Source of the DNA: Bacillota bacterium
GTDB lineage: Bacteria; Bacillota; Sulfobacillia; UBA8153
Length of the DNA: 48,929 bases
Direction: 5' to 3'
NCBI GenBank assembly: GCA_007130145.1
Contig: SLSY01000086.1
Location: 1-48,929 of the forward strand
This document shows, one piece after another, positions 12,577 through 46,702 of this stretch (positions are counted from its first letter, which is position 1; each line of letters opens with the position of its first letter). A program made the position numbers and the translations under genes. The notes beneath the pieces are model-generated. The model was given only the letters and a program-made list of their open reading frames with translations. It was not told the origin of the DNA and made no database searches.

Positions 12577-13770
12577 TCACGATACTTCCTTCTTCAAGGC
12601 GGCCGTTAGAGCGGGTATCACCTCAAACAAGTCGCCCACAATGCCATAAGTTGCCACCTGAAATATGGGGGCATCGGCATTCTTGTTGATCGCCACGATC
12701 ACATCGGCCGATTGCATGCCGGCCAGATGTTGAATGGCCCCGGAAATACCCACAGCAATGTAGAGTTTGGGAGCTACTGTCTTGCCGGTCTGGCCCACTT
12801 GATGACGATAGGGTATCCAGCCGGAGTCGACAGCAGCTCGTGATGCCCCCACTGCGCCGTTGAGCATACTGGCGAGTTCTTCCAAGAGACTGAAGTTCTT
12901 GCTGTCTCCGAGCCCGCGTCCGCCTGACACAATAATATCAGCCTCTTCAATGTTGATGCTGTGTATTAGCTCGGGAATGTAATCAAGTAGGCGCGTGCGG
13001 CTGGTTAACTGATGCGCGTTTAGGCTTAGTTCCACGATGCGGCCCTGGCGCTTGGTATCTGCTATTGCTCGCTTCATCACTTTGGGTCTCACACTGGCCA
13101 TTTGCGGGCGGTGACGCCGACAGAGAATCGTAGCCATGATATTGCCACCCCAGGCAGGGCGCGTTTGCTCCAAGAGCCTGGCCTCACCGGCAATGCTCAG
13201 TTCGGTGCAATCCGCGGTGAGTCCCGTCCGCAGGCGCCCGGCCAACCGGGGTGCTAAAGAGCGGCCGGTAGAGGTGGCCCCAAACAAGAATATCTCTGGC
13301 TCGAATTCCTCTACACCTTGGGCAATGATCGCCGTGTAAGGTTCATCGCGGAAATCCTTGAGTTCGGGATGGTCAGCCAAATACACAATATCAGCCCCAT
13401 GAGCAATGAGGTCACCCGTCAGCTTCCCCACTTCGTGCCCCAAAAGCACGGCACAAAGCGGTGTGTCCAGCTCATCGGCTAACTTCCGTCCCTCCCCGAG
13501 AAGCTCGTAGACAACGCCGGACAGTTGTCCGCTGCGTTGCTCTGCAAAGATCCAAACGCCCCCTTGCGCAGGGGGGCTTACTATGGCTTCCTCGCTCTGT
13601 TCCATCTCGATCGCCCCAAAGGCACAGTGGTCAACACAAGCACCACAGAGGTTACAGGCATCACCAATACGCGCGATCCCATCCTCAATGGTAATGGCAC
13701 CAAATGGGCAGCTGGAGAGGCACTCTTCGCAACCAGAGCAATTCTCCTCTATGATTCGTATGTATTTCAT
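12577..13770 (-). CDS. etfA: Electron transfer flavoprotein alpha subunit with N-terminal 2x[4Fe-4S] ferredoxin domain
   Basis: The N-terminus carries CSGCEECLSSCP and CNLCGACVDHC. The C-terminal FAD-binding EtfA core is present (VSGGRGLG, SRAAVDSGW, QVGQTGKTVAPKLYIAVGISGAIQH). Confidence 0.88.
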   Translation of the reverse strand: MKYIRIIEENCSGCEECLSSCPFGAITIEDGIARIGDACNLCGACVDHCAFGAIEMEQSEEAIVSPPAQGGVWIFAEQRSGQLSGVVYELLGEGRKLADELDTPLCAVLLGHEVGKLTGDLIAHGADIVYLADHPELKDFRDEPYTAIIAQGVEEFEPEIFLFGATSTGRSLAPRLAGRLRTGLTADCTELSIAGEARLLEQTRPAWGGNIMATILCRRHRPQMASVRPKVMKRAIADTKRQGRIVELSLNAHQLTSRTRLLDYIPELIHSINIEEADIIVSGGRGLGDSKNFSLLEELASMLNGAVGASRAAVDSGWIPYRHQVGQTGKTVAPKLYIAVGISGAIQHLAGMQSADVIVAINKNADAPIFQVATYGIVGDLFEVIPALTAALKKEVS

Positions 13771-13781
13771 GTCGCTCCCCC

Positions 13782-14576
13782 TTACATTAAGCCAGCCTGA
13801 CGCAACCCGTGTATCAGTTGCTTTGCTTGCTCATCAGGCGACCCTTCCAGAATCTGTGTATCCTTTTCTAGTTGGGGAGTGAAGACCTTTACCACCTCTG
13901 TCGGCGAGCCAGCGAGCCCCACCCGCTCTGCATCCACTGCCAGTTCTGCTGCATCCCACACGGTTACTTCCATACGTTTAGCCTTCATAATCCCTCTAAG
14001 CGAAGGGAGGCGGGGCTCGTTGATCTCCTTGACCACCGTCAAGAGAGCCGGCATTGTCATTTCGACTTGTTCAATGCCGCCTTCGACCAATCGTTCCACC
14101 TCGATGGCTTGGGGTGACAAGGACGCGATCTTGCGGACATAGGTAGCATGAGGTATATCCAATTCCTCCGCCACTCCCGGCCCAACTTGCGCCGTATCAC
14201 CATCCACTGCCTGCTTACCGCAGAGGACCAAGTCACATCCACCCAATGTCTCGATGGCCCGGGCCAGTGTGTAAGCGGTAGCGAGTGTATCGGCTCCGGC
14301 AAAAGCTCGATCGGACAAAAGCACCGCCCTATCACAACCGAGAGCCAGTGCTTCTTTGAGCATTTCCTGCGCTTGGGGTGGCCCCATGCTCAAGGCAACA
14401 ACTTCATGATCACCTTCCTGTTTCTCCTTGATGCGCAGCGCCTCTTCGAGAGCGTACATATCAAAAGGATTAGTAATCGAAGCGACTCCCTCTCGCATCA
14501 AAGTACCCGTTTCCGGGTTAATCTTGGCCGACTCCGTGGTCTCTGGAACTTGCTTTACGCATACTACGATCCGCAA
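13782..14576 (-). CDS. etfB: Electron transfer flavoprotein beta subunit
   Basis: LRIVVCVKQVPE matches the typical EtfB N-terminus. I placed the start at TTG 14576, which is preceded by GGAGGGAGG with a 7-nt spacer. The ORF extends to 14627. Confidence 0.87.
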   Translation of the reverse strand: MRIVVCVKQVPETTESAKINPETGTLMREGVASITNPFDMYALEEALRIKEKQEGDHEVVALSMGPPQAQEMLKEALALGCDRAVLLSDRAFAGADTLATAYTLARAIETLGGCDLVLCGKQAVDGDTAQVGPGVAEELDIPHATYVRKIASLSPQAIEVERLVEGGIEQVEMTMPALLTVVKEINEPRLPSLRGIMKAKRMEVTVWDAAELAVDAERVGLAGSPTEVVKVFTPQLEKDTQILEGSPDEQAKQLIHGLRQAGLM

Positions 14577-14652
14577 CGTTTTGCCTCCCTCCGTTCTGGT
14601 GCCCTCCCTTCCCTGCGCTGTGGTCACGCTGGCAAGAGGTTAGGCATAACAC

Positions 14653-36283: not shown

Positions 36284-38068
36284 TCAATCAGCGTCAGAAG
36301 CTACATCCTTAGCCTTGTCCTCCGCCTTATCCTCCGCCTTATCGGTAAAACGACCGCGTGCTGTATAGTGTGTGTGCAAGAGCTCGTGAGACTTGTGTCC
36401 TAACGGCTTCTCCAGATACTCCTCGTACAGCTCCTTTACGGCTGGATTGTCATGGGACTTGCGTAAGGCTAAGTCCTTATCGGCTTGGTAAATGCCACCG
36501 ATTCTCTGTTGGCGGGTCTCGGTGTTGGTGGGAATGGGTTGTCCGCCACCACCAATGCATCCACCGGGGCAACACATGATCTCGACGAAGTGCCAATCGG
36601 CCTCTCCGCTCTTGATGCGTTCCATGAGCTCGCGGGCATTGCTCAACCCATGGCTCACAGCGACCTTAACCGTTGTGCCGGCCACGTCCACTTCCGCTTC
36701 CTTGATACCCTGGAGACCGCGCACCGGTTCAAAGTCCAGACCCGGCAGTTCATCGCCGGTGAGAACCTCATAGGCCGTGCGCAGGGCAGCCTCCATCACA
36801 CCACCAGTAGCGCCGAAGATCACTGCAGCACCCGTGCTCATGCCCAGCGGTGCATCATAATCTTCCTCTTCCAAGGATCTGAAGTCGATGCCTGCCTCAG
36901 CTATCATACGACCCAGCTCGCGAGTGGTGAGCACATAGTCCACATCCTGGTAGCCACTGGAGTTCATCTCGGGGCGCTGGGCCTCGAACTTCTTGGCAGT
37001 ACAAGGCATGATGGACACAACCACAATGCTGGCCGGGTCAATGCCCGCCTTCTCTGCGTAGAAGGTCTTGGCTAACGCACCGAACATCTGCTGCGGCGAC
37101 TTACACGTGGACAGGTTGGGCAACAACTCCGGATAGAAGTGTTCAATGAACTTGATCCATCCCGGGCTGCAAGACGTGAACATGGGCAAGACTCCGCCAC
37201 TTTGGATCCGGTCGATCAGCTCGTGCCCTTCCTCCATGATGGTCAGGTCTGCCGTGAAATCAGTATCGAACACGCGATCAAATCCCAATGCGCGCAGAGC
37301 GGCTACGAGTTTGCCGGTGCTCACTTCACCCACATCCAGACCGAAGGCTTCTCCAATCGAGACACGAATGGCTGGAGCAGTCTGCACCACCACGTGTTTT
37401 TCTGGATCGGACAGCACAGCCCAAACATCGTCTACGTATTCCTTCTCCGTCAGGGCTCCTACCGGGCACACCAGTGTGCACTGACCGCACATGGTGCACG
37501 CTGCCTCCTGCAGCTTGTCCCCGAAGGCAGGACCCACCGTGGTTTCCATGCCACGTTCGTTCAGGCCAATGGCGGATACACCCTGCACATGTTCGCACAC
37601 AGCAATGCAGCGGCGACACAGGATGCACTTCTCCGGATCTCGCACGATGGACGGGGTAGACGAATCAACCGGTCTCTCTACACGCTCGCCTTCAAAACGA
37701 GACTCTCTAATGCCCATCTCCGCGGTCAGATCCTGCAGTTCGCAGTGCTGATTGCGCACACATGTAAGGCATTCAAACGGGTGATCCGATAAGATCAATT
37801 CCAGATTCAAGCGCCGCGCTTTACGCACCGGGGCACTATTGGTTGAGATCTCCATGCCTTCACCCACTGGAGTTACGCAAGCGGCCTGCAAGGTGCGGGC
37901 ACCCTTGACTTCAACCACGCAAATCCGACACGAACCGACCACATTGACGTCTTCCAGGTAACACAACGTCGGGATCTTGATCCCAGCCTGCTGCGCCGCC
38001 TCCAATATGGTGGTTCCACTTTCGACCTGTACCTTTTTCCTGTCTATGGTCAATGTAACCAAAGCCAC
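36284..38068 (-). CDS. [FeFe]-hydrogenase HydA-like large subunit (bifurcating HydABC / StnC-like) with a variant L1 motif
   Basis: N-terminal plant-type 2Fe-2S and His-ligated/2x[4Fe-4S] domains (CYLEDVNVVGSCRIC, HPFECLTC, CILCRRCIAVC, CTMCGQCTLVCP). H-domain motifs are L1 FTSCSPGW, L2 MPCTAKKFE and L3 EIMCCPGGCIGGGGQP. Confidence 0.92.
   Translation of the reverse strand: MALVTLTIDRKKVQVESGTTILEAAQQAGIKIPTLCYLEDVNVVGSCRICVVEVKGARTLQAACVTPVGEGMEISTNSAPVRKARRLNLELILSDHPFECLTCVRNQHCELQDLTAEMGIRESRFEGERVERPVDSSTPSIVRDPEKCILCRRCIAVCEHVQGVSAIGLNERGMETTVGPAFGDKLQEAACTMCGQCTLVCPVGALTEKEYVDDVWAVLSDPEKHVVVQTAPAIRVSIGEAFGLDVGEVSTGKLVAALRALGFDRVFDTDFTADLTIMEEGHELIDRIQSGGVLPMFTSCSPGWIKFIEHFYPELLPNLSTCKSPQQMFGALAKTFYAEKAGIDPASIVVVSIMPCTAKKFEAQRPEMNSSGYQDVDYVLTTRELGRMIAEAGIDFRSLEEEDYDAPLGMSTGAAVIFGATGGVMEAALRTAYEVLTGDELPGLDFEPVRGLQGIKEAEVDVAGTTVKVAVSHGLSNARELMERIKSGEADWHFVEIMCCPGGCIGGGGQPIPTNTETRQQRIGGIYQADKDLALRKSHDNPAVKELYEEYLEKPLGHKSHELLHTHYTARGRFTDKAEDKAEDKAKDVASDAD
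36313..36345. repeat. Tandem 12-nt repeat (about 2.7 copies) encoding the (K-A-E-D)n tail of the HydA-like protein
   Basis: CCTTGTCCTCCG / CCTTATCCTCCG / CCTTATCGG, read directly from the sequence. The protein tail is DKAEDKAEDKAKD. Confidence 0.7.
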
Positions 38069-38093: not shown

Positions 38094-41000
38094 CTACTCA
38101 GGCACGTCACAACGCAGGCAGCGAGCCGCTTCTTTCTTGGCCGCCTCCTCGTCATATCCGGTCTCCACTTCAGTGAAGGAACCCAAACGCTCCTCACAGC
38201 TGACACATATCGCGGGCATCTTCTCCCGCGGCATGACTTGCTCGGACACCTCGGCACGCAACACGCGTTCCACCGGCAGTTCCGGAACCACATCCCCGTG
38301 TCCGCCAAGGTACTTGTCAATGGAGCCGGCGGCCAGCTTACCAGCCTGTACGGCCTTAATCACCGTCGCTGGCCCTGTCACCAAATCGCCTCCGGCAAAT
38401 AGGCCGTCCACTCCGGTAACGCCGGCCTCGGTCGCCAGCACTGTGCCATTTCGCATGGTTTCCAGACCACACTCGGCCATAAGTTCTCCGGTGGGAACCT
38501 GGCCAATGGCGGTAATGACTACATCAGCTGGAATCTCGAACTCGGAGTCTTCCACCGGCAGGCTGCGACGCCGTCCGCTGCTGTCAAAGTCACCTGACCG
38601 CATGGTAATGCACTGTAAGGCCGCTACCTTACCATCCTGCCCCAGTGCCTTGACCGGGTTGACCATGGGCAGGATCTTGATGCCTTCATGAAGAGCTTCC
38701 TCGATTTCCAGACGCTCGGCCGGCATATCCTGCAAGCTGCGACGGTAAACAATGGTCACGCTCTCGGCACCCAAGCGTAGCGAAGAACGAGCGGCATCGA
38801 TAGCTACATTGCCACCGCCGACCACTACGACTCGCTTGCCTTGCACCTCACCCTGGCCGGAGATGTTCAACAGGCGCAAGAAAGCAGCACCGGGCTTAAT
38901 ACCCTCCAAATCCTCACCTTCAATACCCAAACTCTGATCGTTATGGGCACCAATGGCCAGGTAGATAGCATCAAAGCCTTGATCCTTCAAGTCTTGTAGC
39001 GTGAAGTCACGTCCCAAGGCTTGTCTGGTGCGGATCTCAACGCCAGCCTGGGTTATGGCCTGTATCTCTTTGTCCAGAACAGCTCTGGGCAAACGGTACT
39101 CAGGGATGCCCACCGTCAGCATACCACCAGCGACGGGCTGTGCTTCAAACACCGTGATATCATAGCCCTTGCATCCCAGATAGTATCCGGCACTCAAACC
39201 CGCTGGCCCCGCCCCTACAATGGCTACCTTCTTACCGTTATCCGGCAACCTGTCCACTTCGGGCCAGCAATCGTTCTCGATGACATAGTCCGAAGCAAAG
39301 CGCTTCAGGGCGCGGATGGCAACCGGTTCGTCGATCTGTTCACGCCGGCACCGCGCTTCGCAGGGATGGTCACATACCCGGCCACATACCACCACGAAGG
39401 GATTCTGACGGCGCACCGTCTTGTAGGCTTCCACGTACTCACCGGCCCTGACTTGATCGACGTAGATCGGCACGTCCACCTCGGCCGGACAGGTGTTTTG
39501 ACACGGCGAATCAAACAGAGAAGCGCACACAGACGCCGGACACTTGCGATCGCGGATGTGTGCTTCGTATTCGTCGCGGAAGAAATTGATGGTGCTAAGA
39601 ACAGGGTTGGGAGCCGTCTGCCCCAAGCCGCACAGCGCTGTGCTCTTGATTGATTCGCCCAGTTCCTGCAGCATCTCGATGTCCCCGTCTTGGCCTTCGC
39701 CCCGGGTGATGCGCTGGAGGATCTCCAGCATACGCTTGGTGCCGATACGACAAGGCGTACACTTGCCACAAGACTCATCCTGCACGAATTCCAGGAAGAA
39801 CTTGGCCAAGTCCACCATACAAGTATCTTCGTCCATAACGACGAGCCCACCAGAGCCCATGATGGTTCCCAACGACTGTAACGATTCATAGTCAATGGGT
39901 GTATTCAAGTGCTCCACCGGGATACATCCACCGGAAGGACCACCGGTTTGCGCGGCCTTGAACTTGCGATGGTTGGGAATGCCGCCACCGATATCATATA
40001 TGATGTCACCCAACGATGTTCCCATGGATACCTCGACCAGACCATTGTTGTTGATGGCCCCAGCCAGAGCGAACACCTTCGTACCCGGCGACTTCTCCGT
40101 ACCCATGGTAGTGAACCAGTCGGCACCTTCACGCAAGATGGGTGCGATATTGGCAAATGTCTCCACGTTGTTGAGAACCGTTGGCTTGTCCCACAAACCA
40201 GAATTGGCAGGAAACGGTGGTCGCGGACGCGGTTCGCCGCGCCGCCCCATAATGGATGTGAGAAGAGCCGTTTCTTCTCCACACACAAAGGCACCCGCAC
40301 CGAGCCGGATGTCAATGTCGAAGTCAAACCCGCTGCCAAAGATGTTCTTGCCCAAAAGGCCCTTTTCTCTCGCCTTTTCAATGGCCAGATACAGGCGCCT
40401 AACGGCAATGGGATACTCGGCGCGGATATAGATGTAACCTTGGTTGGCCCCAACGGCATAGCCAGCAATGGCCATACCTTCCAGGATGGAATGGGGGTCG
40501 CCCTCAAGGATACTGCGATCCATGAAAGCACCAGGATCACCTTCATCTGCGTTACACACCACGTACTTGGGTGAACCATCAGCTCGAGCGGTGAATTCCC
40601 ACTTCATACCCGTTGGGAATCCGCCTCCGCCCCGGCCTCGCAATCCTGACTTTCTGACCTCGGCCACCACATCTTCGGGCTTCATTTCAAGCAAGACCTT
40701 GCCGAGACCAAGATAGCCATCTTGCGCAATATACTCTTCCAGAGACTCAGGATCAATAAGTCCACAGTTGGCCAGCACGATACGCTCTTGCTTCTTGAAA
40801 AAGTCGATATCCTGAAAATCAGATACCGTCATCTCTGCATCAGGCGGATGATACAATAGCCGCTGGACCACACGTCCTTTTAGGAAGTGCTCAGACACAA
40901 GTTCGGGTACATCCTCCAAATGGACTTCACAGTACATGACGCCCTCAGGATACACCACCATGTTAGGACCAAAGCGACAAAAACCGAAGCATCCGGTTTC

Positions 41001-41156
41001 GACAATGCGAATCTCACGCTCGAGCCCGTTATCCTCGATTTCCTCCTTGAGCGCTTGGCGCAAGGCCGTACTGTTTGAGGCCTCACATCCAGTACCGGCA
41101 CACACCAGCACATGGCTTCGGAACAAATCCACAGAGAACCTCCTCCCTTCTTCCAC
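38094..41156 (-). CDS. Fusion protein: Trx-like [2Fe-2S] + NuoF/HydB-like FMN/NADH module + GltD/NfnB-like FAD/NADPH module
   Basis: aa 1-100: VLVCAGTGC...GCFGFC. aa 125-535: GRGGGGFPTG, ADEGDPGAF, ESCGKCTPCR...LCGLG. aa 538-1020: CPASVC..CQNTCP, VCGRVCDHPCEARC, VAIVGAGPAGLSAG, VVVVGGGNVAIDAARS, TIVYRRS..DMPA. Confidence 0.93.
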   Translation of the reverse strand: MEEGRRFSVDLFRSHVLVCAGTGCEASNSTALRQALKEEIEDNGLEREIRIVETGCFGFCRFGPNMVVYPEGVMYCEVHLEDVPELVSEHFLKGRVVQRLLYHPPDAEMTVSDFQDIDFFKKQERIVLANCGLIDPESLEEYIAQDGYLGLGKVLLEMKPEDVVAEVRKSGLRGRGGGGFPTGMKWEFTARADGSPKYVVCNADEGDPGAFMDRSILEGDPHSILEGMAIAGYAVGANQGYIYIRAEYPIAVRRLYLAIEKAREKGLLGKNIFGSGFDFDIDIRLGAGAFVCGEETALLTSIMGRRGEPRPRPPFPANSGLWDKPTVLNNVETFANIAPILREGADWFTTMGTEKSPGTKVFALAGAINNNGLVEVSMGTSLGDIIYDIGGGIPNHRKFKAAQTGGPSGGCIPVEHLNTPIDYESLQSLGTIMGSGGLVVMDEDTCMVDLAKFFLEFVQDESCGKCTPCRIGTKRMLEILQRITRGEGQDGDIEMLQELGESIKSTALCGLGQTAPNPVLSTINFFRDEYEAHIRDRKCPASVCASLFDSPCQNTCPAEVDVPIYVDQVRAGEYVEAYKTVRRQNPFVVVCGRVCDHPCEARCRREQIDEPVAIRALKRFASDYVIENDCWPEVDRLPDNGKKVAIVGAGPAGLSAGYYLGCKGYDITVFEAQPVAGGMLTVGIPEYRLPRAVLDKEIQAITQAGVEIRTRQALGRDFTLQDLKDQGFDAIYLAIGAHNDQSLGIEGEDLEGIKPGAAFLRLLNISGQGEVQGKRVVVVGGGNVAIDAARSSLRLGAESVTIVYRRSLQDMPAERLEIEEALHEGIKILPMVNPVKALGQDGKVAALQCITMRSGDFDSSGRRRSLPVEDSEFEIPADVVITAIGQVPTGELMAECGLETMRNGTVLATEAGVTGVDGLFAGGDLVTGPATVIKAVQAGKLAAGSIDKYLGGHGDVVPELPVERVLRAEVSEQVMPREKMPAICVSCEERLGSFTEVETGYDEEAAKKEAARCLRCDVPE

Positions 41157-41177: not shown

Positions 41178-41552
41178 TCATTCTTCTCGTGACTCACTTA
41201 CGTTGAGCGCCCATTCGGATATGACATTGCCATTGGCCACGTGTTGTGCCACGATCTGCCGGGCTCGGCTGGGCGAAACTTCTCCATACGTCACCCGGGG
41301 CTGTCCAGGCATGAAGACATCTACCAGGGGCTCACGCGAGCAAATGCCCACGCATCCTGTCTGTGTCACGACGGCCTTGAGGCGGCGCTTGTTCAATTCA
41401 TCCAGGATAGATTCCAGTGCATCACGAGCGCCAGCAGCAATACCACAGGTACCCATACCCACGACGATGCGGGCCTCATCCTGTCCCTGACGGACCCGGA
41501 TATCTTCCTTCACTCTATCCTTGATCTCTCTGAGCTCTTCCAGAGACTTCAC
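41178..41552 (-). CDS. Thioredoxin-like [2Fe-2S] ferredoxin (HydD/HndB-like)
   Basis: 124 aa with VVGMGTCGIAAGA and QTGCVGICSREP (four Cys). GTG start in a TAGTG overlap with the upstream stop, preceded by GGAGGTG. Confidence 0.85.
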   Translation of the reverse strand: MKSLEELREIKDRVKEDIRVRQGQDEARIVVGMGTCGIAAGARDALESILDELNKRRLKAVVTQTGCVGICSREPLVDVFMPGQPRVTYGEVSPSRARQIVAQHVANGNVISEWALNVSESREE

Positions 41553-42103
41553 TAGATTTCACCTCCTCTGAGGTCTTGGATACTGGTCCGGTATGTGTCC
41601 CGTACCCACTTTACCACTTGCGGATGGTTGATGGGTAGATCATCCAACTCCTCACGCATGCGGCGCGTGTCGAACACGCACTCTTGACCATTATAACAGT
41701 GGTGATACACGAGGTCTAGATGGGGATTGGTTGCCACAATGATAGCCAGTGTGCCACCCATATCGCCCAGTGGCGGTCGATCAACGTGCGAATGCTGAAA
41801 GACTGCTACTACCCGTGTTCCGCCCCTTGGTGCCGCCGTTACCTTCAGGTACCCGTCACTTTGCTCACATGCTTGCGCCAGCAAGGGTAAGCCCAATCCT
41901 ACCCGCCGGGTCTTGCGCGTGGTGACAAAGGCATCGGCCACACTCGCACGCATTTGTTCATCCATGCCGGGGCCGTCATCATCCACCATCACGGTCAACC
42001 GATCCTCGGTTGTGTCTTCATCGATGTTGACCCAGATGCAGCGAGCGCCAGCCGCACGGCTGTTCTCATACAGGTCCAACAGGTGAAGAGCCAGTTCCTC
42101 CAA
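41552..42103 (-). CDS. Stand-alone GHKL (HATPase_c) ATPase domain protein, no DHp/HisKA domain
   Basis: N-box-like LDLYENSRAAGA, G1 VDDDGPGMD and G2 RRVGLGLPLL. Only 183 aa. Wedged between the NuoE-like and Trx-like genes. Confidence 0.8.
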   Translation of the reverse strand: MEELALHLLDLYENSRAAGARCIWVNIDEDTTEDRLTVMVDDDGPGMDEQMRASVADAFVTTRKTRRVGLGLPLLAQACEQSDGYLKVTAAPRGGTRVVAVFQHSHVDRPPLGDMGGTLAIIVATNPHLDLVYHHCYNGQECVFDTRRMREELDDLPINHPQVVKWVRDTYRTSIQDLRGGEI

Positions 42104-42104
42104 T

Positions 42105-42602
42105 TCAGTTGCTTTCCGGCTTGCGATAGCGTTCTAGCAGGGCAGACACGCGATCAGCCTTAATCCGCGCATGGGTGTCTTCGTTAACCGTCAGCACAGG
42201 AGCCAAGCCACATGCGCCCAAACAACGAACCACCTCTAGTGAGAACTCCCGGTCATCGGTGGTATCCCCGGGTGAAATGCCCAATTCCCTCTGCAGTCTC
42301 TCCAGCACCTTGGGAGCACCTCGGACATAACAGGCTGTTCCCTGACAACAGTTCACTTGAACGCGTCCCTTGGGTTTCAGTGAGAAGAGTGAATAGAACG
42401 TGACCACACCATAGATCTCGGCCAAGGAGACGTTCAGTCCCTCAGCGATCATCTCCTGAGCTTTTCTGGGCACATAGCCGAGTGACTCCTGGGCTGTGTG
42501 GAGCACCTGAATCAACGCACCTGCGTTACCACGATTTGTCTCGATAGCCTTCTCAAGTGCACCGTAATCCTCTTCCTGGCAAACACAAACCTTTTCCTCC
42601 AA
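42105..42602 (-). CDS. NuoE/HydC-like [2Fe-2S] subunit
   Basis: CCQGTACYVRG...VRCLGACGLAP is the Cx4C...Cx3C NuoE motif, with LIQVLHTAQE near the N-terminus. Confidence 0.9.
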   Translation of the reverse strand: MEEKVCVCQEEDYGALEKAIETNRGNAGALIQVLHTAQESLGYVPRKAQEMIAEGLNVSLAEIYGVVTFYSLFSLKPKGRVQVNCCQGTACYVRGAPKVLERLQRELGISPGDTTDDREFSLEVVRCLGACGLAPVLTVNEDTHARIKADRVSALLERYRKPESN

Positions 42603-42604
42603 CT

Positions 42605-43366
42605 CTAGTTCCTCCCTTCTCTGACGCCTACTAAGGCCAGCCGGTGGCCATCATCACCCCGGCAAGCCTTACGAAATGATTCTAGATCCAGCCGCTGACA
42701 ATACACACCCGTCTTCTGTCGCCCCACCTCGCTTCTGTGATGCGCATCAGACGATGTTACCAAGGCGATCGACTCGCCAATGGCATGCATCCTCCGCAGC
42801 GCATCCGTATTTCTGCCACCGGACACCTCTAGAGCTGTGACCCCGAGGCCTTCCGGCACAAAACCCAGTACTCCTAGCAACCCGAAGCTCTCTCTCTCAA
42901 TGTGGGCCGGTATACTTACCCCCCCTAAGGCCCGGGTCATATCAACCACCTGCTCCAGTGAATAGCCACTGGCTGTGGATAGCATGTTGTCCTCTTCTCC
43001 GACCACCCGGTTCGTGCAGTCGTAAATCAGCTGCTCTCCTAACACACGCGCCATAGATCGCCGGCGGAGAAGAGTATCACCTATTTGCTGCGACATATCT
43101 TTTGCTTGCTCAAGGGACGAGAAGATGCAAAGGACATGGACTTCTTCACTGGTCTCCACCTCAAGGCCCGGCCAAACGATCAAGTCGAAGGGCTCTGCCT
43201 GGCACATCACCGCCTCGCAATTGAGAGCACTGTTATGGTCGGTTATGGCGATGGCATCCAATCCCACTTCCAGGGCTGCCGTCACCACACCGTGAGGATC
43301 CATATCAGCTCCAGCGCAAGGCGAGAGCGCAGTGTGCACATGGAGATCAACCAGGTGCCACTTCAT
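42605..43366 (-). CDS. PHP-domain metal-dependent phosphoesterase
   Basis: VDLHVHTALSPC, AITDHNS and SDAHH. The start at Met13 forms an ATGA overlap with the upstream stop (43363-43366). Confidence 0.85.
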   Translation of the reverse strand: MKWHLVDLHVHTALSPCAGADMDPHGVVTAALEVGLDAIAITDHNSALNCEAVMCQAEPFDLIVWPGLEVETSEEVHVLCIFSSLEQAKDMSQQIGDTLLRRRSMARVLGEQLIYDCTNRVVGEEDNMLSTASGYSLEQVVDMTRALGGVSIPAHIERESFGLLGVLGFVPEGLGVTALEVSGGRNTDALRRMHAIGESIALVTSSDAHHRSEVGRQKTGVYCQRLDLESFRKACRGDDGHRLALVGVREGRN

Positions 43367-43716
43367 TCTTTGTCCTTTAGGCATGCAAACAAGCGACCAC
43401 ACACCTCAAAACTGCGCGACGATGCACTGAACAAGGCCACCTGCTCTCGCCTGGCCGTCTCGAGCGTCTCGGGTTTAACTGGCCGATCTCCCGTGATCAC
43501 TATGCCAGCCATTCCCACCAGAACGGCCACAGCCACGATGTTCTGATGGCTTTGCATCGTAACCCACAAACTGCCTTCTTGAGCATGCGCCATCACGTCC
43601 GAGAGCAGGTCTCCCACATACCCTGCCTTTACCGGGCGCTCGGGATCATATGAGCCCTGAGGACACAATTCGAGTGCTTCCACAACTTCAACCAGCTTCA
43701 CCATCATCATCCTCAC
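43363..43716 (-). CDS. DRTGG-domain protein
   Basis: About 115 aa with GYVGDLLSDVMAHAQEGSLWVT and AGIVITGDRPVKPETLETARREQVALF. The start lies among clustered Met codons at 43704-43716 and overlaps the upstream gene end. Confidence 0.78.
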   Translation of the reverse strand: MRMMMVKLVEVVEALELCPQGSYDPERPVKAGYVGDLLSDVMAHAQEGSLWVTMQSHQNIVAVAVLVGMAGIVITGDRPVKPETLETARREQVALFSASSRSFEVCGRLFACLKDKE

Positions 43717-45019
43717 TCTGTTGAGTATGCGACTTCATCCCCATGGAGCGGGGCAGGTGCCGGGCCAAGTCAACTATTTCTTCAGCCATTCCGTGAACTC
43801 GTTCACGCAGCTTCAGCACACAATCCATCTCATCTGCGTAACCGCGTACAATATCCTCTGCCAAGGCTCGACAGCTGGGAGCGCCACAAGCTCCGCAATC
43901 CAAGCCGGGCAGTTGATCTTCCACCGCTTCCAGCTGGCGGAGTTTGTCAATGGCGCGAGATATATCATCGTCGAGTCTGAGCACGGGGCGCGCTTTTACC
44001 TCGCTCAGGTAGGTGAAGTAGTCACTCTTTAGACGTTGCTCTAACCCGGGGGTCGCCTCCTCGCCATGTGCCCCGCGTTCGGCAGCCAGATTACGCACTC
44101 GTACACGAGCGACAAAGGGATTTTCCACGGCCAAACACCCACCCACGCAACCCGTAACACAAGCCTGGGCCTCTATGAAGTCCAGTCCGGCCAGCTTGTC
44201 TCGCTCCACTTCTTCAAAGACTTTAATGCACTGGTGAATGCCATCCACGGCAAGAGAATCTCGCCCCATGATCGTGGTCTCACCGCCGGAGCGCCCCCAA
44301 CCCATTCCGTAACCCGAAGCCTTAGGAATGAGAGGAGCGCGGGCCGCATGCTCCATTTGCCGCAAACATTCGGCATAAATAGCAGACATGGAGAAGGCTC
44401 CATCAACCGCGCTCTTGTCACGACCCACCGGCTGCTTGATCGCCGTTACCTTGGCCGGACAAGGAGAAACGAAAAAGACTCCATGCTCGGGACCGAGAGT
44501 GTCCTTGGCAATCTTAGCTGCCATCTCCATGGGAGACTCTAGTTTGATCAAATGATCGAGAAGCGCGGGGAAACGCACCTGAATCAGGCGCACCACGGCC
44601 GGACAAGCAGAAGAAATCAAGGGACGGGGTGAGGAATGTTCCTTCAAGTAACGCCGCATCGCCATGGATACGGCATCGGCGGCCAGCGCCACTTCATACA
44701 CTTCGTCAAAACCGATCAACCGTAAAGCACTCAGTACCACTCCTGGATCAGGCGTAGGAAACTGTCCCATGAAAGCCGGCGCCGGTATGATCACTGACTT
44801 GGGATATGCCTTCACGAGGTCCAGCGAATCGGTGACGGCCAGCTTAGCATGGTTAGGGCAGACACGAATGCATTCCCCGCAATCAATGCACCGTTCTTCA
44901 AAGATCCAAGCTCGCCCGTCCCTCACCCGAATCGCTTCGGTAGGGCAGCGCTTAATGCAGTTGGTACACCCTTTACACTTTTCTGCATCTAAGGTGACTG
45001 AATGGTAGTAGTCGGCCAC
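43688..45019 (-). CDS. Sensory-type [FeFe]-hydrogenase homologue (HydS-like) lacking a PAS domain
   Basis: N-terminal 2x[4Fe-4S] (CKGCTNCIKRCP, CIDCGECIRVCP). H-domain variants are SSACP, SPCPAK and EAQACVTGCVGG. C-terminal CGACGAPSC-x16-C. I placed the start at GTG 45019, 6 nt after AGGAGG. The ORF is open to 45106. Confidence 0.85.
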   Translation of the reverse strand: MADYYHSVTLDAEKCKGCTNCIKRCPTEAIRVRDGRAWIFEERCIDCGECIRVCPNHAKLAVTDSLDLVKAYPKSVIIPAPAFMGQFPTPDPGVVLSALRLIGFDEVYEVALAADAVSMAMRRYLKEHSSPRPLISSACPAVVRLIQVRFPALLDHLIKLESPMEMAAKIAKDTLGPEHGVFFVSPCPAKVTAIKQPVGRDKSAVDGAFSMSAIYAECLRQMEHAARAPLIPKASGYGMGWGRSGGETTIMGRDSLAVDGIHQCIKVFEEVERDKLAGLDFIEAQACVTGCVGGCLAVENPFVARVRVRNLAAERGAHGEEATPGLEQRLKSDYFTYLSEVKARPVLRLDDDISRAIDKLRQLEAVEDQLPGLDCGACGAPSCRALAEDIVRGYADEMDCVLKLRERVHGMAEEIVDLARHLPRSMGMKSHTQQSEDDDGEAG

Positions 45020-45111
45020 AGCCGTCCTCCTGAATTGAACTAGTTTTGTCATGCATTGCATGGGTCCTGCCGCTGCCCGTATATCCGGGCCTCCGTCAGG
45101 GAGCAAACGTC

Positions 45112-45567
45112 TTACTCTCGACCTTTGCTGAAAAAAAGCAATCGCAAGGTTGTACCCTTGTCCACAACCGAATCAAGGTGCATTTGATCGACACAACGCT
45201 TAATGTTGGTCAGCCCCATGCCCGCCCCGAACCCCATTTCCCGCACGTGCGTCGGGGCCGTCGAGTATCCATCCTGCATCGCCAAATCAATATCTGGAAT
45301 GCCTGGCCCCTCATCCTCAACGCATATTTCTATGCGCTCCGGACCAATCTTCGCCACCAAGCATCCGCGGTGCGCGTGAATCACCACATTGATTTCGGCT
45401 TCATAGGTTGCGCTGGCTACACGTCTAATCATATCCGCCGGCATGCCCAGTTGCGTCATAGTGCGCTTGATTCCTGTCGCCGCTTCCCCGGCCGTTGTGA
45501 AATCCATTCCCTTGATTCTAAACTCCAGTACGATACGGGAATCATTGTTCGGTCGGGCGTCATTCAC
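45112..45567 (-). CDS. RsbW/SpoIIAB-like GHKL serine-protein-kinase (anti-sigma-factor-like)
   Basis: 151 aa with AGEAATGIK, N-box YEAEINVVIHA, G1 VEDEGPGIPD and G2 GFGAGMGLTNIKR. Confidence 0.8.
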   Translation of the reverse strand: MNDARPNNDSRIVLEFRIKGMDFTTAGEAATGIKRTMTQLGMPADMIRRVASATYEAEINVVIHAHRGCLVAKIGPERIEICVEDEGPGIPDIDLAMQDGYSTAPTHVREMGFGAGMGLTNIKRCVDQMHLDSVVDKGTTLRLLFFSKGRE

Positions 45568-45593
45568 CCCTTACTCACTCCTGTTCAGGCCAT

Positions 45594-46148
45594 TCACGAA
45601 TTACAACCGGGAAGACCCGCTTTATAGAGTAAACCACAGCTCGTGTACAGCAAGTGGTCGGTGGCAAGCAGAGGTAAACCGCGCTCAGCTGCCATTTCCA
45701 GCACCTTTTCAGACGGGAGTGGACGCTTGCCCCTGACGAACACGACGGCACTGGCATCAATGATATACGCACTGTGAATCACTTGGACGTTCGTCAACCC
45801 GGTCAAAAGGACAACACCGGGCTTGCCAAAGGTCAAGAAGTCGCTCATCATGTCGCAACCAAAGGCCGACTCAACCACCAGTTCCTTGTGCTCCTCGCCG
45901 GTCAAGAAGGTAGCATCAAGCAACTCCTGTATCTGACCTAGTTTAATGGGTCTCAACCTCCTGGTCTTGGTAATCCATAATGTCTGTGCAACCAATAATA
46001 CATTCAGCACGCGCCAAGGTATTTCCTGCCCTTCCAACCCACTTGTCGGAGAACTATTTGGTTTTCGCATGAATAAGCGGCATAAGCGGATCAAAATATG
46101 GGCCAGAGGGCGTGAGACGGCATGTGAAGTAGAATATCCAACCGTCAT
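45594..46148 (-). CDS. DRTGG-domain protein, true start probably near 45945
   Basis: The C-terminal roughly 115 aa are DRTGG-like (CDMMSDFLTFGKPGVVLLTG, AVVFVRGKRPLPSEKVLEMAAERGLPLLAT). The N-terminal roughly 65 aa of the ORF look non-protein-like. AGGAGG sits at about 45954-45959. Confidence 0.7.
   Translation of the reverse strand: MTVGYSTSHAVSRPLAHILIRLCRLFMRKPNSSPTSGLEGQEIPWRVLNVLLVAQTLWITKTRRLRPIKLGQIQELLDATFLTGEEHKELVVESAFGCDMMSDFLTFGKPGVVLLTGLTNVQVIHSAYIIDASAVVFVRGKRPLPSEKVLEMAAERGLPLLATDHLLYTSCGLLYKAGLPGCNS
46073..46089. repeat. Tandem ATAAGCGG-N1-ATAAGCGG upstream of the hyd/stn-like operon
   Basis: Read directly from the sequence, with a period of 9 nt. It lies in the probable untranslated region upstream of the first DRTGG gene. 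Confidence 0.5.
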
Positions 46149-46330: not shown

Positions 46331-46702
46331 ATGCTCGGCAATATCATCAGGCAATACCGCATGGATAAAGGCCTTTCACTGCGTGCATTTGCTTCTAGAT
46401 GTGGACTGAGTCACAGTTACGTAGACATGCTCGAGAAGGGACACGACCCTCGCAACGGTCAATCGCCCCGGCCGAGTATAGACACCCTGATCGCGCTGGC
46501 CAAGGGGCTGGAAATTGAGGCGCGTGAACTGATGGCCCATGCGGACCACCTGTCGTCGGCAGAACGACAAGACATTGAGTCCTTCGCCATTGCGTACAGA
46601 GAAGACCCCCTGTCCGATCTTCCTGAGCATGCACGTCTTTGTGTCGAACGATTCATCCAAAGAATGCGGCATAAATACGGGGTAAAGGAAACACGCGACT
46701 GA
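46331..46702 (+). CDS. XRE-family helix-turn-helix transcriptional regulator
   Basis: IIRQYRMDKGLSLRAFASRCGLSHSYVDMLEKG is a Cro/C1-type HTH. The palindrome CGGTGAgTCACCG (46316-46328) lies just before the ATG. Confidence 0.8.
   Translation: MLGNIIRQYRMDKGLSLRAFASRCGLSHSYVDMLEKGHDPRNGQSPRPSIDTLIALAKGLEIEARELMAHADHLSSAERQDIESFAIAYREDPLSDLPEHARLCVERFIQRMRHKYGVKETRD

What the first reader, a model, noticed from the sequence alone, without database searches (positions are those of the whole stretch)
41552..46148. Kinase-like, phosphoesterase and DRTGG proteins with no recognisable output domain: a possible non-canonical partner-switching circuit
The operon encodes five candidate signalling proteins:
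- An RsbW/SpoIIAB-like GHKL kinase (45112-45567).
- A second, domain-minimal GHKL ATPase (41552-42103).
- A PHP phosphoesterase (42605-43366).
- Two small DRTGG proteins (43363-43716 and 45594-about 45945).

No STAS/anti-anti-sigma protein, sigma factor, receiver domain, DHp/HisKA domain or DNA-binding protein is present in the operon.

By analogy with SpoIIAB/SpoIIAA/SpoIIE, I infer the following. The DRTGG proteins could be the phosphorylatable switch partners and PHP the phosphatase. Input would come from the HydS-like sensor. Output might act directly on the redox complex (post-translational control) rather than on transcription. This is pure inference. DRTGG has no established function that I know of.
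Basis: inference. Interest (0 to 1): 0.7.

Follow-up and report, generated by a model that had tools for sequence, protein, structure and literature searches.

The report
Conserved kinase-DRTGG cassette beside bifurcating hydrogenase
The five small "signalling" genes are real and belong to a widely conserved, uncharacterised cassette that sits next to NADH-flavoprotein modules of hydrogenases, formate dehydrogenases and even complex I, which makes its proteins the best current candidates for how group D hydrogen-sensing hydrogenases pass on their signal.

Summary
On the minus strand, 46148->36284 is one tightly packed operon: DRTGG-up, a SpoIIAB-type GHKL kinase, a group-D (TamHydS-like) sensory [FeFe] hydrogenase, DRTGG-down, a PHP phosphoesterase, HydC, a second GHKL ATPase, HydD, HydB and HydA. 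No STAS, sigma, receiver, DHp or DNA-binding domain is present.

The cassette is not a local oddity.
- It is colinear in about 75 of 80 genomes found through HydS.
- In 80 metagenome loci found through the second ATPase, about half lack HydS altogether.
- There it precedes NuoE-HydD-NuoF modules of hydrogenases and formate dehydrogenases, sits inside complex I operons, or precedes rnf.

Catalytic motifs of the kinase, PHP and second ATPase are invariant. Both DRTGG paralogues carry an invariant D-x-x-S motif (252/252). DRTGG-up is naturally fused to the kinase (at least 8 cases) or to HydS (2 cases).

DRTGG is not STAS-like. The second GHKL resembles a mini MutL/TopoVI-B ATPase rather than a kinase. 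PHP is missing in some lineages.

Best reading: an ATP-driven phospho- or partner-switch acting post-translationally on the flavoprotein module, with HydS as an optional H2 input. DRTGG phosphorylation is plausible but untested. This is a new variant of a known kind, and interest is fairly high.

The parts
45594..45947 (-). DRTGG-up (DRT2), 117 aa. Single-domain DRTGG protein encoded directly upstream of the kinase. Probable ATT start.
   Evidence: PF07085, 25.2 bits. AF2 pLDDT 95, with Foldseek match to 2IOJ at TM 0.80. Invariant residues D32, S35, D36, T49, G50, R72, K74 and G111. RBS followed by ATT. Fused to the kinase or to HydS in other genomes.
45112..45567 (-). GHKL-A, 151 aa. SpoIIAB/RsbW/RsbT-type serine kinase-like ATPase.
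   Evidence: PF13581 4.4e-10. Matches SpoIIAB structures at 1.6e-8. The N-box (Y55 E56 E58 N60 H64), G1 (D85xG87xG89), lid (G100 S102 T103 A104) and G2 (G112-FGAGMGL-N121) are invariant in 76 orthologues.
43688..45106 (-). HydS-like group D (M2e) putative sensory [FeFe] hydrogenase, 472-aa ORF. The true start may be the internal Met near 45058.
   Evidence: Two Fer4 domains, Fe_hyd_lg_C at 2.6e-33 and a C-terminal PF04060 domain. No PAS domain. Motifs: ISSACP (proton-relay Cys replaced by Ala), SPC (M353 replaced by Ser) and a C-terminal Cx2Cx4Cx16C. These match the description of TamHydS in PMC8163306.
43363..43716 (-). DRTGG-down (DRT1), about 113-117 aa. Paralogue of DRT2, encoded directly upstream of PHP.
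   Evidence: PF07085, 27.9 bits. hhalign against the DRT2 family gives 99.7%, E 2e-25. Invariant residues D36, S39, W51, T53, N59 and A64. The stop codon overlaps the PHP start.
42605..43366 (-). PHP-family metal-dependent phosphoesterase, 253 aa.
   Evidence: PF02811 1e-7. Invariant metal-site residues H9, H11, D43/H44, E69, H77, H155, D207 and H209, plus unusual invariant C17 and C80. A family profile hits EndoQ at 1.5e-12, RNase AM at 8e-9, and TrpH-like and pAp-phosphatase PHP domains.
42105..42602 (-). HydC (NuoE-like [2Fe-2S] subunit).
   Evidence: PF01257 2.8e-50.
41552..42103 (-). GHKL-B, 183 aa. Two-domain mini GHL-type ATPase, consisting of a Bergerat fold plus a transducer-like domain.
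   Evidence: PF02518 8e-14. Invariant residues D10, N14, D42xG44xG46, F59, T61, R63, R66, G69, G71, D108, P111 and G113. AF2 pLDDT 86. In Foldseek the full length aligns best to PMS2/MutL/MLH1 and TopoVI-B (176-200 columns), whereas histidine-kinase CA domains align over only about 100-114 columns. It is followed by HydD in 82/97 loci and preceded by PHP or DRT in 108/113.
41178..41552 (-). HydD-like small thioredoxin-like [2Fe-2S] ferredoxin (Fd2).
   Evidence: NF041612 2.2e-11. It accompanies GHKL-B in nearly all loci.
38094..41156 (-). HydB, a NuoF-like FMN/NADH subunit fused to a GltD-like NAD(P)H-flavin domain, 1020 aa.
   Evidence: Complex1_51K 4e-48, NADH_4Fe-4S, Fer4_20 and Pyr_redox_2.
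36284..38068 (-). HydA, the catalytic [FeFe] hydrogenase subunit.
   Evidence: NF040763 at 945 bits (cutoff 765). Closest solved relative is A. woodii HydA1, 7Q4V.

Best explanation
The five genes are this genome's copy of a widespread accessory cassette: DRTGG-up, a SpoIIAB-type GHKL kinase, DRTGG-down, usually a PHP phosphoesterase, and a MutL-like mini ATPase. The cassette is dedicated to NuoE-HydD-NuoF NADH-flavoprotein modules.

It most likely works as an ATP-driven protein switch that acts post-translationally on the flavoprotein module or on its HydD subunit, not on transcription.

In this organism a group-D sensory hydrogenase (HydS) is inserted between the kinase and DRTGG-down and supplies an H2 input. 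DRTGG-up docks the kinase to HydS.

The kinase and PHP would set the phosphorylation state of a small partner. The best candidate site is the invariant Ser of the D-x-x-S motif in one or both DRTGG proteins. The alternative target is a Hyd subunit. GHKL-B would act as an ATP-dependent clamp at the enzyme.

Shown here: the gene content, its conservation, the fusions, the intact motifs, the folds and the range of genomic contexts.
Inferred: the physical complex, phosphotransfer, the identity of the substrate, and the direction of the effect on HydABC.
For: 1. Synteny.
- DRT-GHKLA-HydS-DRT occurs in 74/80 genome loci, and DRT-PHP in 69/80.
- In the 80 loci seeded on GHKL-B, PHP-(NuoE)-GHKLB occurs in 67.

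2. The cassette follows the flavoprotein module, not HydS.
- 22 cassettes lack HydS against 19 that have it.
- Contexts are HydABC(D) in many loci, FdhA-NuoEF (L084) and complex I. In L085 the order is nuoA-D, cassette, nuoE-L. In L093 the cassette is split around nuoABCD. L089 and L127 are further complex I cases.
- In L044, L046 and L076 the cassette sits upstream of rnfCDGEAB.

3. No transcription factor, sigma factor or STAS gene is co-conserved within +-10 kb.

4. Rosetta-stone fusions.
- DRT::GHKLA occurs in L003, L004, L005, L021 and L105, and in three 50%-identity cluster representatives (P0403, P0431, P0455).
- DRT::HydS occurs in L072 and P0433.

5. Catalytic motifs of the kinase, PHP and GHKL-B are invariant.

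6. The D-[LMIV]-[LMIV]-S motif is present in 252/252 DRT proteins. The AF2 model places it at the N-terminus of a helix, next to conserved T, N and R/K residues. The motif is absent from the generic DRTGG protein AF1212.

7. Cassette proteins co-vary with each other and with HydD beyond the NuoF phylogeny. Partial Mantel r is 0.28-0.57 with p = 0.001. They do not co-vary with NuoE (r = 0.00).

8. Literature.
- The partners of TamHydS are still unknown and are being sought (PMC13104023).
- A flanking HK-like ATPase was noted for TamHydS (PMC8163306).
Against: - No phosphotransfer, binding or phenotype data exist.
- DRTGG has a HprK-N/MurE-N-like fold, not a STAS fold.
- N-terminal fusion of DRTGG to the kinase or to HydS is just as typical of a sensor or adaptor domain as of a substrate.
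- PHP is absent from several lineages. Its nearest solved relatives are nucleases and nucleotide phosphoesterases. No CpsB/YwqE-type protein phosphatase is matched.
- GHKL-B looks like an ATPase clamp, so its role is open.
- From my own knowledge: purified HydABCD complexes have not been reported to contain these proteins.
- Partial Mantel tests are prone to false positives when sequences are related.
- A sigma factor or transcription factor encoded elsewhere cannot be excluded from loci of 20 kb.
Confidence: 0.5

Rival explanations
1. H2-loaded HydS controls GHKL-A, which phosphorylates the DRTGG proteins on the D-x-x-S serine. PHP dephosphorylates them. The unphosphorylated or phosphorylated DRTGG then binds and releases the kinase or the enzyme, with DRTGG as a functional analogue of STAS.
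For: - The gene order DRT then kinase mirrors spoIIAA-spoIIAB and rsbV-rsbW.
- The Ser is invariant in both paralogues.
- The kinase keeps intact SpoIIAB-type motifs.
- DRT-down and PHP are adjacent in 69/80 loci, overlap translationally, and show the strongest residual co-variation, r = 0.57.
- DRT::HydS fusions resemble RsbR, which is a sensor domain fused to the phosphorylatable domain.
Against: - The fold is not STAS.
- DRT::kinase fusions make a freely exchanging partner less likely in those lineages.
- Half of the cassettes lack HydS.
- PHP is missing in some lineages.
- The PHP subfamily is nucleotide- or nuclease-like.
Confidence: 0.3
2. The DRTGG proteins are ligand-sensing or adaptor subunits, for example for NADH/NAD+ or adenine nucleotides, that tune the two GHKL ATPases and PHP. 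The real kinase substrate is a subunit of the redox enzyme (HydB, HydC or HydD). This would resemble the way the GHKL kinases PDK and BCKDK phosphorylate dehydrogenase complexes.
For: - DRTGG is fused N-terminally to the kinase and to HydS, as a sensor domain would be.
- The conserved D/S/T/N/R/K residues lie at the C-terminal edge of a Rossmann-like sheet, which is a typical ligand pocket.
- DRTGG domains sit in the regulatory parts of CBS-pyrophosphatase (3L2B) and, from my own knowledge, of Pta.
- Cassettes without HydS still need an input.
- The cassette always accompanies NuoE-HydD-NuoF.
- BCKDK appears among the weak matches to GHKL-B.
Against: - SpoIIAB-type kinases are known to act on small dedicated partner proteins, not on large enzymes.
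- No ligand is known for any DRTGG domain.
- The D-x-x-S motif is identical in two otherwise divergent paralogues, which is an odd pattern for two different sensors.
Confidence: 0.3
3. The cassette is an assembly, cofactor-insertion or repair system for the NuoEF/HydD module. The GHL ATPase would serve as a chaperone or clamp, and PHP would process a nucleotide cofactor. It would not be a signalling circuit.
For: - The cassette is embedded in structural operons, including between nuoD and nuoE.
- GHKL-B resembles MutL and TopoVI-B clamps.
- PHP is nearest to nucleotide phosphoesterases.
- The cassette co-varies with HydD.
- hydEFG maturases lie next door in some loci.
Against: - Most NuoEF enzymes assemble without such genes.
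- A SpoIIAB-type kinase and a hydrogen sensor inside the cassette point to regulation.
- The cassette occurs with rnf, where only RnfC is NuoF-like.
Confidence: 0.12
4. GHKL-A is a conventional anti-sigma factor or partner-switch kinase whose sigma factor and STAS antagonist are encoded elsewhere, so the output is transcriptional.
For: Databases name these proteins 'anti-sigma regulatory factor' or 'RsbT'. The closest solved relatives are SpoIIAB and RsbW.
Against: - No sigma or STAS gene lies within +-10 kb in 80 loci.
- The TIGR01925 score is far below its cutoff.
- The kinase is always paired with DRTGG and is sometimes fused to it.
- Its N-terminal partner-binding motif (F..AG.A...K) differs from that of SpoIIAB.
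Confidence: 0.06

Closest known systems
SpoIIAB-SpoIIAA-SpoIIE and RsbW-RsbV-RsbU partner switching, including the RsbR-RsbS-RsbT-RsbX stressosome module
   Same: - A small GHKL serine kinase of the HATPase_c_2 type.
- The gene for a small single-domain partner lies directly upstream of the kinase gene.
- A dedicated phosphoesterase gene is present.
- There are two paralogous small partners.
- A sensor fused to the small domain (DRT::HydS) recalls RsbR.
   Different: - The partner has a DRTGG fold, not STAS.
- The phosphoesterase is PHP, not PP2C.
- There is no sigma factor or other known output.
- The cassette is embedded in operons of redox enzymes.
- A second, MutL-like ATPase is part of the set.
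TamHydS, the group D (M2e) putative sensory [FeFe] hydrogenase of Thermoanaerobacter mathranii (PMC8163306, PMC13104023)
   Same: The domain layout matches: two N-terminal [4Fe-4S] clusters, an H-domain, a C-terminal Cx2Cx4Cx16C, and no PAS domain. The proton-relay Cys is lost and M353 is replaced by Ser. The gene lies upstream of a bifurcating hydrogenase and next to an HK-like ATPase.
   Different: Only the hydrogenase has been studied. Its signalling partners are explicitly unknown. A Thermoanaerobacter locus seen here lacks PHP.
Group C sensory [FeFe] hydrogenases (TmHydS, R. albus HydS, HfsB) with PAS and PP2C/kinase partners
   Same: An H2-sensing hydrogenase-like protein is linked to Ser/Thr kinase and phosphatase genes next to fermentative hydrogenases.
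   Different: Group C proteins carry a fused PAS domain and use SpoIIE/PP2C phosphatases. They have no DRTGG and no PHP. L086 carries both systems side by side.
PDK/BCKDK with their phosphatases, i.e. mitochondrial GHKL kinases acting on 2-oxoacid dehydrogenase complexes
   Same: A GHKL-fold kinase and a dedicated phosphatase regulate a large redox enzyme complex post-translationally.
   Different: The relationship is by analogy only. There is no sequence closeness beyond the shared fold, and no small partner proteins are involved.
DRTGG domains of CBS-pyrophosphatases (3L2B/3L31), AF1212 (2IOJ), Pta and SpxR/YtoI-type regulators
   Same: The fold is the same (TM 0.73-0.80), and the domain sits in a regulatory position next to phosphoesterases or enzymes.
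   Different: Here DRTGG is a stand-alone protein without CBS partners. It has a subfamily-specific invariant D-x-x-S motif in place of the TGGDR-type motif.
SiaA-SiaB-SiaC of Pseudomonas aeruginosa (from my own knowledge)
   Same: This is a non-canonical partner switch in which an RsbW-like kinase phosphorylates a small partner of its own kind, and the output is an enzyme rather than a sigma factor.
   Different: SiaC has a STAS-like fold, the phosphatase is PP2C, and the target is a diguanylate cyclase.

Membership tests
Partner-switching module (SpoIIAB/RsbW type) | Small GHKL serine kinase of the HATPase_c_2 type with intact N, G1 and G2 boxes | tested here: met
   PF13581 4.4e-10. SpoIIAB structures match at 1.6e-8. 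The motifs are invariant in 76 orthologues. However, TIGR01925 scores 56 bits against a cutoff of 135, so the protein is not an equivalog of SpoIIAB.
Partner-switching module (SpoIIAB/RsbW type) | STAS-domain antagonist carrying the phosphorylatable Ser | tested here: not met
   No STAS domain is found in the operon or in 80 related loci. The small partners have the DRTGG fold, and the top 50 Foldseek matches contain no STAS or SpoIIAA structure.
Partner-switching module (SpoIIAB/RsbW type) | PP2C (SpoIIE/RsbU/RsbX) phosphatase | tested here: not met
   The phosphoesterase is PHP. A PP2C gene is seen only in L086 and L121, beside a separate group C HydS.
Partner-switching module (SpoIIAB/RsbW type) | Sigma factor or other defined output bound by the kinase | tested here: not met
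   None is found in the operon or within +-10 kb of 80 loci. Whole genomes could not be searched.
Partner-switching module (SpoIIAB/RsbW type) | ATP-dependent phosphorylation of the partner and its reversal | not testable with these tools
   This needs biochemistry. Only a candidate site can be named: the invariant Ser in D-x-x-S, present in 252/252 sequences.
Group D (M2e) putative sensory [FeFe] hydrogenase | Two N-terminal [4Fe-4S] motifs, an H-domain, a C-terminal Cx2Cx4Cx16C, and no PAS domain | tested here: met
   Fer4 domains, Fe_hyd_lg_C and PF04060 are present, with no PAS. The sequence ...CGACGAPSC-x16-C is read from the translation.
Group D (M2e) putative sensory [FeFe] hydrogenase | Loss of the proton-relay Cys (C299 in CpI numbering) and replacement of M353 by Ser | tested here: met
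   ISSACP and SPC motifs are present. SSACP occurs in 59 and SSSCP in 10 of the 70 motif matches among orthologues. The criteria are taken from PMC8163306. No phylogeny including TamHydS was made.
DRTGG domain family (PF07085) | Match to the Pfam model and the DRTGG fold | tested here: met
   The two proteins score 27.9 and 25.2 bits against a cutoff of 25.2. TM is 0.80 to 2IOJ and 0.73 to 3L2B. The name-giving TGGDR motif is replaced by T-G-L-x-N in one paralogue and W-x-T in the other.
PHP phosphoesterase family | His/Asp/Glu ligands of the trinuclear metal site | tested here: met
   H9, H11, H44, E69, H77, H155, D207 and H209 are invariant in 65 orthologues. The third N-terminal ligand position is changed to an invariant S-P-C sequence.
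PHP-type protein phosphatases (CpsB/YwqE) | Sequence relationship to the protein-tyrosine-phosphatase branch of PHP | tested here: not met
   A profile search of the PDB finds EndoQ, RNase AM, TrpH-like proteins, a pAp phosphatase, PolC, YcdX and HisJ, but no CpsB or YwqE.
GHL ATPases (MutL/TopoVI-B/Hsp90 type) for GHKL-B | Bergerat ATP-binding fold followed by a transducer-like second domain | tested here: inconclusive
   Foldseek aligns 176-200 of 183 residues to PMS2, MutL and TopoVI-B at E about 1e-6, but TMq is only 0.5-0.58. By sequence, the best matches are histidine-kinase CA domains over residues 8-100. The residue four positions before the N-box Asn is Asp rather than Glu.
Two-component histidine kinase | DHp/HisKA domain with a phospho-accepting His | tested here: not met
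   No HisKA domain is found. The H-box-like H106 of GHKL-B is His in only 51/60 orthologues.

The most novel reading that the evidence does not exclude
Stand-alone DRTGG proteins are a new class of phospho-acceptor or switch proteins, functional analogues of STAS. Together with a SpoIIAB-type kinase, a PHP phosphatase and a MutL-like ATPase, they form a general post-translational control system. That system would serve the NADH-flavoprotein (NuoE/NuoF/HydD) modules of bifurcating hydrogenases, formate dehydrogenases, Rnf and bacterial complex I. Group D sensory hydrogenases would plug in as one of several inputs.
Probability: 0.25. Interest if true: 0.85.

Novelty: new variant of a known kind. 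Interest (0 to 1): 0.68.

Why it matters
- **Open question.** Group D [FeFe] hydrogenases are called "sensory", yet nobody knows how they signal or to whom. A 2026 study of TamHydS ends by asking for its interaction partners (PMC13104023).
- **Named candidates.** Gene order and natural fusions point to specific proteins: DRTGG-up and the SpoIIAB-type kinase, followed by DRTGG-down, PHP and GHKL-B. They also point to one residue to mutate, the Ser of the D-x-x-S motif.
- **Wider reach.** The same cassette sits beside formate dehydrogenases, rnf and inside complex I operons. This suggests an unrecognised layer of post-translational control, or of assembly, for flavin-based NADH modules. These modules set the H2/formate/NADH/ferredoxin balance in fermenters, syntrophs, acetogens and gut Clostridia.
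- **Practical relevance.** That balance matters for biohydrogen and ethanol engineering and for interspecies H2 transfer.

Tried and rejected
- **Rex operator.** No Rex operator lies upstream of the operon. The only matches have 3 mismatches, lie elsewhere in the window, and are at chance level.
- **Neighbouring XRE regulator.** The XRE HTH gene is not the missing output, because it is absent from all 80 related loci.
- **Hidden conserved partner gene.** All-against-all clustering of unassigned ORFs found no family present in more than 10 of 80 loci. Rex appeared in 4 loci and a LuxR-type HTH in 5.
- **GHKL-B as a permuted histidine kinase.** I considered an H-box reading (S-H-[IV]-D-R-x-P-L-G). 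It is rejected as a general mechanism because the His is not invariant, at 51/60.
- **Anti-phage defence system.** PADLOC gave only weak PHP-domain hits.
- **DRTGG as a STAS-like fold.** Rejected by Foldseek.
- **Inter-protein contact prediction.** Direct-coupling analysis was not attempted, since about 120 paired sequences are far too few. Mirror-tree and partial Mantel tests were used instead and are only weak evidence.
- **Model coordinates.** They are not exposed by the tools, so the geometry of the conserved DRTGG residues is inferred from secondary structure alone.
- **Literature searches.** Searches for locus tags and for Poudel et al. 2016 failed with database time-outs. Zheng 2014 and Greening 2016 are not held in the library. 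Statements from Poudel et al. 2016 therefore rest on my memory.

Full report
**What is in the window**

The minus strand from 46148 to 36284 carries ten tightly packed genes, many with overlapping stop and start codons. In order they are:
- DRTGG-up (45594-45947)
- a SpoIIAB/RsbW-like GHKL protein, GHKL-A (45112-45567)
- a HydS-like [FeFe] hydrogenase (43688-45106)
- DRTGG-down (43363-43716)
- PHP (42605-43366)
- HydC/NuoE (42105-42602)
- a second GHKL ATPase, GHKL-B (41552-42103)
- a HydD-like [2Fe-2S] ferredoxin (41178-41552)
- a NuoF::GltD fusion, HydB (38094-41156)
- HydA (36284-38068)

They find no STAS, sigma, receiver, HisKA or HTH domain.

DRTGG-up scores exactly at Pfam's cutoff. Its AlphaFold model (pLDDT 95) nevertheless superposes on the DRTGG structures 2IOJ (TM 0.80) and 3L2B (TM 0.73). 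Its family aligns with the DRTGG-down family at 99.7% probability. The gene probably starts at an ATT codon 9 nt after an AGGAGG, at the position where 97% of orthologues have Met.

HydS has the hallmarks given for the group D enzyme TamHydS: no PAS domain, a C-terminal Cx2Cx4Cx16C, the relay Cys replaced (ISSACP) and M353 replaced by Ser (SPC).

**Conservation**

A scan of one genome per species with HydS returned 80 loci at 39-57% identity. They come from Thermoanaerobacterales, Tepidanaerobacter, Thermosediminibacter, Oscillospirales, Lachnospirales and many gut and digester Clostridia, plus an Ignavibacteriales and a Calditrichales assembly.
- The order DRT-GHKLA-HydS-DRT is kept in 74 loci.
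- DRT-PHP is kept in 69 loci.
- The HydC-GHKLB-HydD-HydB-HydA block follows, is divergent, or has hydC moved upstream.

Sporomusa shows the same ten genes. Clustering all remaining ORFs found no other family in more than 10 of the 80 loci, so no transcription factor, sigma factor or STAS protein travels with the cassette. The XRE-type HTH gene that diverges from the operon in this window is not conserved.

**The cassette is not tied to HydS**

Homologues of GHKL-B led to quite different contexts.
- In a Smithellaceae contig the order is DRT-GHKLA-DRT-PHP-GHKLB-NuoE-HydD-NuoF::GltD, followed by a molybdopterin formate dehydrogenase. There is no HydS.
- In a Thermodesulfobacteriota contig, GHKLA-DRT-PHP-GHKLB lies between nuoD and nuoE of a complete complex I operon.
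- In L044, L046 and L076, DRT-GHKLA-HydS-DRT-GHKLB sits directly upstream of rnfCDGEAB.

A metagenome scan seeded with GHKL-B gave 80 further loci.
- PHP-(NuoE)-GHKLB occurs in 67 loci.
- 19 cassettes have HydS and 22 lack it.
- After HydD-NuoF comes HydA (6 loci), a NuoG-like gene (5) or FdhA (4).
- Three more loci are of the complex I type. In L093 the cassette is split around nuoABCD.

Across all loci, GHKL-B is followed by HydD within two genes in 82 of 97 cases. It is preceded by PHP or DRT in 108 of 113 cases. The constant neighbour is therefore the NuoE-HydD-NuoF flavoprotein module, or RnfC, which carries the same Nuo51 FMN-binding (Complex1_51K) domain as NuoF.

PHP is missing in Desulfofarcimen acetoxidans, in a Thermoanaerobacter contig and in the rnf-linked loci. 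GHKL-B and HydD are both missing in L029.

**State of the proteins**

In 60-76 orthologues each:
- GHKL-A keeps every SpoIIAB-type ATP-binding motif.
- GHKL-B keeps its N, G1 and G2 boxes and a D108-x-x-P-x-G motif.
- PHP keeps all metal ligands, plus two unusual invariant cysteines, C17 and C80.

The "dead subunit" alternative is therefore unlikely.

PHP's nearest solved relatives are EndoQ, RNase AM, TrpH-like proteins and a pAp phosphatase. The CpsB/YwqE protein phosphatases are not matched.

By sequence, GHKL-B resembles histidine-kinase CA domains over residues 8-100. Its full-length model (pLDDT 86) aligns best with PMS2, MutL, MLH1 and TopoVI-B N-terminal fragments, at TMq 0.5-0.58 over 176-200 columns. 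This suggests a two-domain GHL-type ATPase rather than a kinase. An H-box-like His is not invariant.

**The DRTGG proteins**

Both paralogues carry D-[LMIV]-[LMIV]-S in 252 of 252 sequences, whether or not HydS is present. In the model this motif starts helix 2, just after strand 2. The other shared invariant residues (a Thr ending strand 3, an Asn starting helix 3, and R72/K74 in DRT-up) lie at the same edge of the sheet. The motif is not present in the generic DRTGG protein AF1212.

Such a constellation fits either a phospho-acceptor site or a ligand pocket. The fold is related to the N-domains of HprK/P and of MurE/F, not to STAS.

The family is large: 2581 clusters at 50% identity have E <= 1e-3. 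JGI labels these proteins "predicted transcriptional regulator" although they have no DNA-binding domain.

**Fusions and co-variation**

DRT-up is fused to GHKL-A in one reading frame in Tepidanaerobacter (three genomes), in Thermosediminibacter litoriperuensis, in a metagenome locus, and in three separate cluster representatives. It is fused to HydS in L072 and P0433. This argues for a physical HydS / DRT-up / kinase unit.

After removing the signal shared with NuoF, distances among cassette proteins still correlate:
- DRT-down with PHP, 0.57
- PHP with GHKL-B, 0.46
- GHKL-A with PHP, 0.39
- DRT-up with GHKL-A, 0.34
- the cassette proteins PHP and GHKL-B with HydD, 0.35 and 0.28
- the cassette proteins PHP and GHKL-A with NuoE, 0.00 and 0.01

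This is weak evidence, because partial Mantel tests overstate significance for related sequences.

**Interpretation**

The data change the picture in three ways.
1. HydS is an optional plug-in. The cassette belongs to NADH-flavoprotein modules in general.
2. The second GHKL is likelier to be an ATPase clamp tied to HydD than a kinase.
3. DRTGG may be an adaptor or sensor rather than, or as well as, the phosphorylated partner.

My best estimate is an ATP-driven switch acting post-translationally on the flavoprotein module (confidence 0.5). Phosphorylation of the DRTGG serine is the leading specific mechanism, at about 0.3. A PDK-like model, with DRTGG as sensor and adaptor, is about equally likely. 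An assembly role (0.12) and a distant sigma factor (0.06) are less likely.

**Relation to what is known**

The literature read here treats group D as functionally undefined or as putatively sensory with unknown partners. It notes only a flanking "histidine kinase-like ATPase" and a transcriptional regulator. No paper in the library links DRTGG to hydrogenases in any meaningful way.

That agrees with the post-translational reading and lowers the novelty of the general idea.

As far as I could check, three things are new: the DRTGG/PHP/MutL-like composition, the fusions that name the HydS partners, and the spread to formate dehydrogenase, rnf and complex I operons. I therefore rate this a new variant of a known kind, with fairly high interest.

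Noticed in passing
L085:4708-17578; L093:2207-8913; L089:1275-5582; L127: The GHKLA-DRTGG-PHP-GHKLB cassette is embedded in complete respiratory complex I (nuo) operons of Thermodesulfobacteriota-like contigs, between nuoD and nuoE. In L093 it is split, with DRT-GHKLA before nuoA and DRT-PHP-GHKLB after nuoD.
   Followed up: partly
L044:9192-17330 (also L046, L076); L026:16813-19157: The sensory cassette, without PHP, lies directly upstream of rnfCDGEAB. In a Calditrichales genome, rnf follows the cassette-linked NuoE-GHKLB-HydD-NuoF genes, with no full-length HydA detected between them.
   Followed up: partly
window 45945-45962: DRTGG-up most likely starts at a rare ATT codon, 9 nt after an AGGAGG. 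The source's own gene call (P0001, 158 aa) and the longest ORF (184 aa) both extend upstream of it.
   Followed up: partly
window 46331-46702 (+): An XRE-family HTH protein is transcribed divergently from the operon. It has no counterpart in 80 related loci, so it is probably an unrelated neighbour.
   Followed up: yes
window 37150-37180 (HydA residues about 296-304): HydA has TSCSPGW instead of the textbook TSCCPGW H-cluster motif, as do 30 of 31 cassette-linked HydA orthologues. The solved A. woodii HydA1 (7Q4V) has the same TSCSPGW, so this is a clade trait rather than an error.
   Followed up: partly
window 38094-41156: HydB is a 1020-aa fusion of a NuoF-like subunit with a GltD-like NAD(P)H/FAD domain. 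The same fusion occurs in L001, L084, L086, L094 and L121, which hints at an extra NAD(P)H site in this subclass.
   Followed up: no
window 42605-43366 (PHP residues 15-17 and 80): The PHP subfamily has an invariant S-P-C sequence where TrpH-like PHP domains have the metal-binding S-D-G, and a second invariant Cys at position 80. This may be a Cys metal ligand or a redox-sensitive pair.
   Followed up: no
L105:2012-13607: One metagenome contig carries two tandem DRT-GHKLA-HydS sets ahead of a single DRT-PHP-GHKLB-HydD-NuoF-FdhA block. The first set has a DRT::GHKLA fusion.
   Followed up: no
L086:3074-6598; L121:1096-3965: A group C-type HydS with a SpoIIE/PP2C phosphatase and an HATPase protein lies immediately next to a HydS-less DRTGG cassette, so the two kinds of H2-signalling gene sets co-occur.
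   Followed up: no
window 50-1324 (+); 12577-14627 (-): A DDE transposase sits at the window's left end. An EtfA with an N-terminal ferredoxin domain has a possible EtfB gene next to it. The rest of the window is housekeeping: SMC, TopA, TrmFO/GidA-like, Ffh, FabF and ABC exporters.
   Followed up: no
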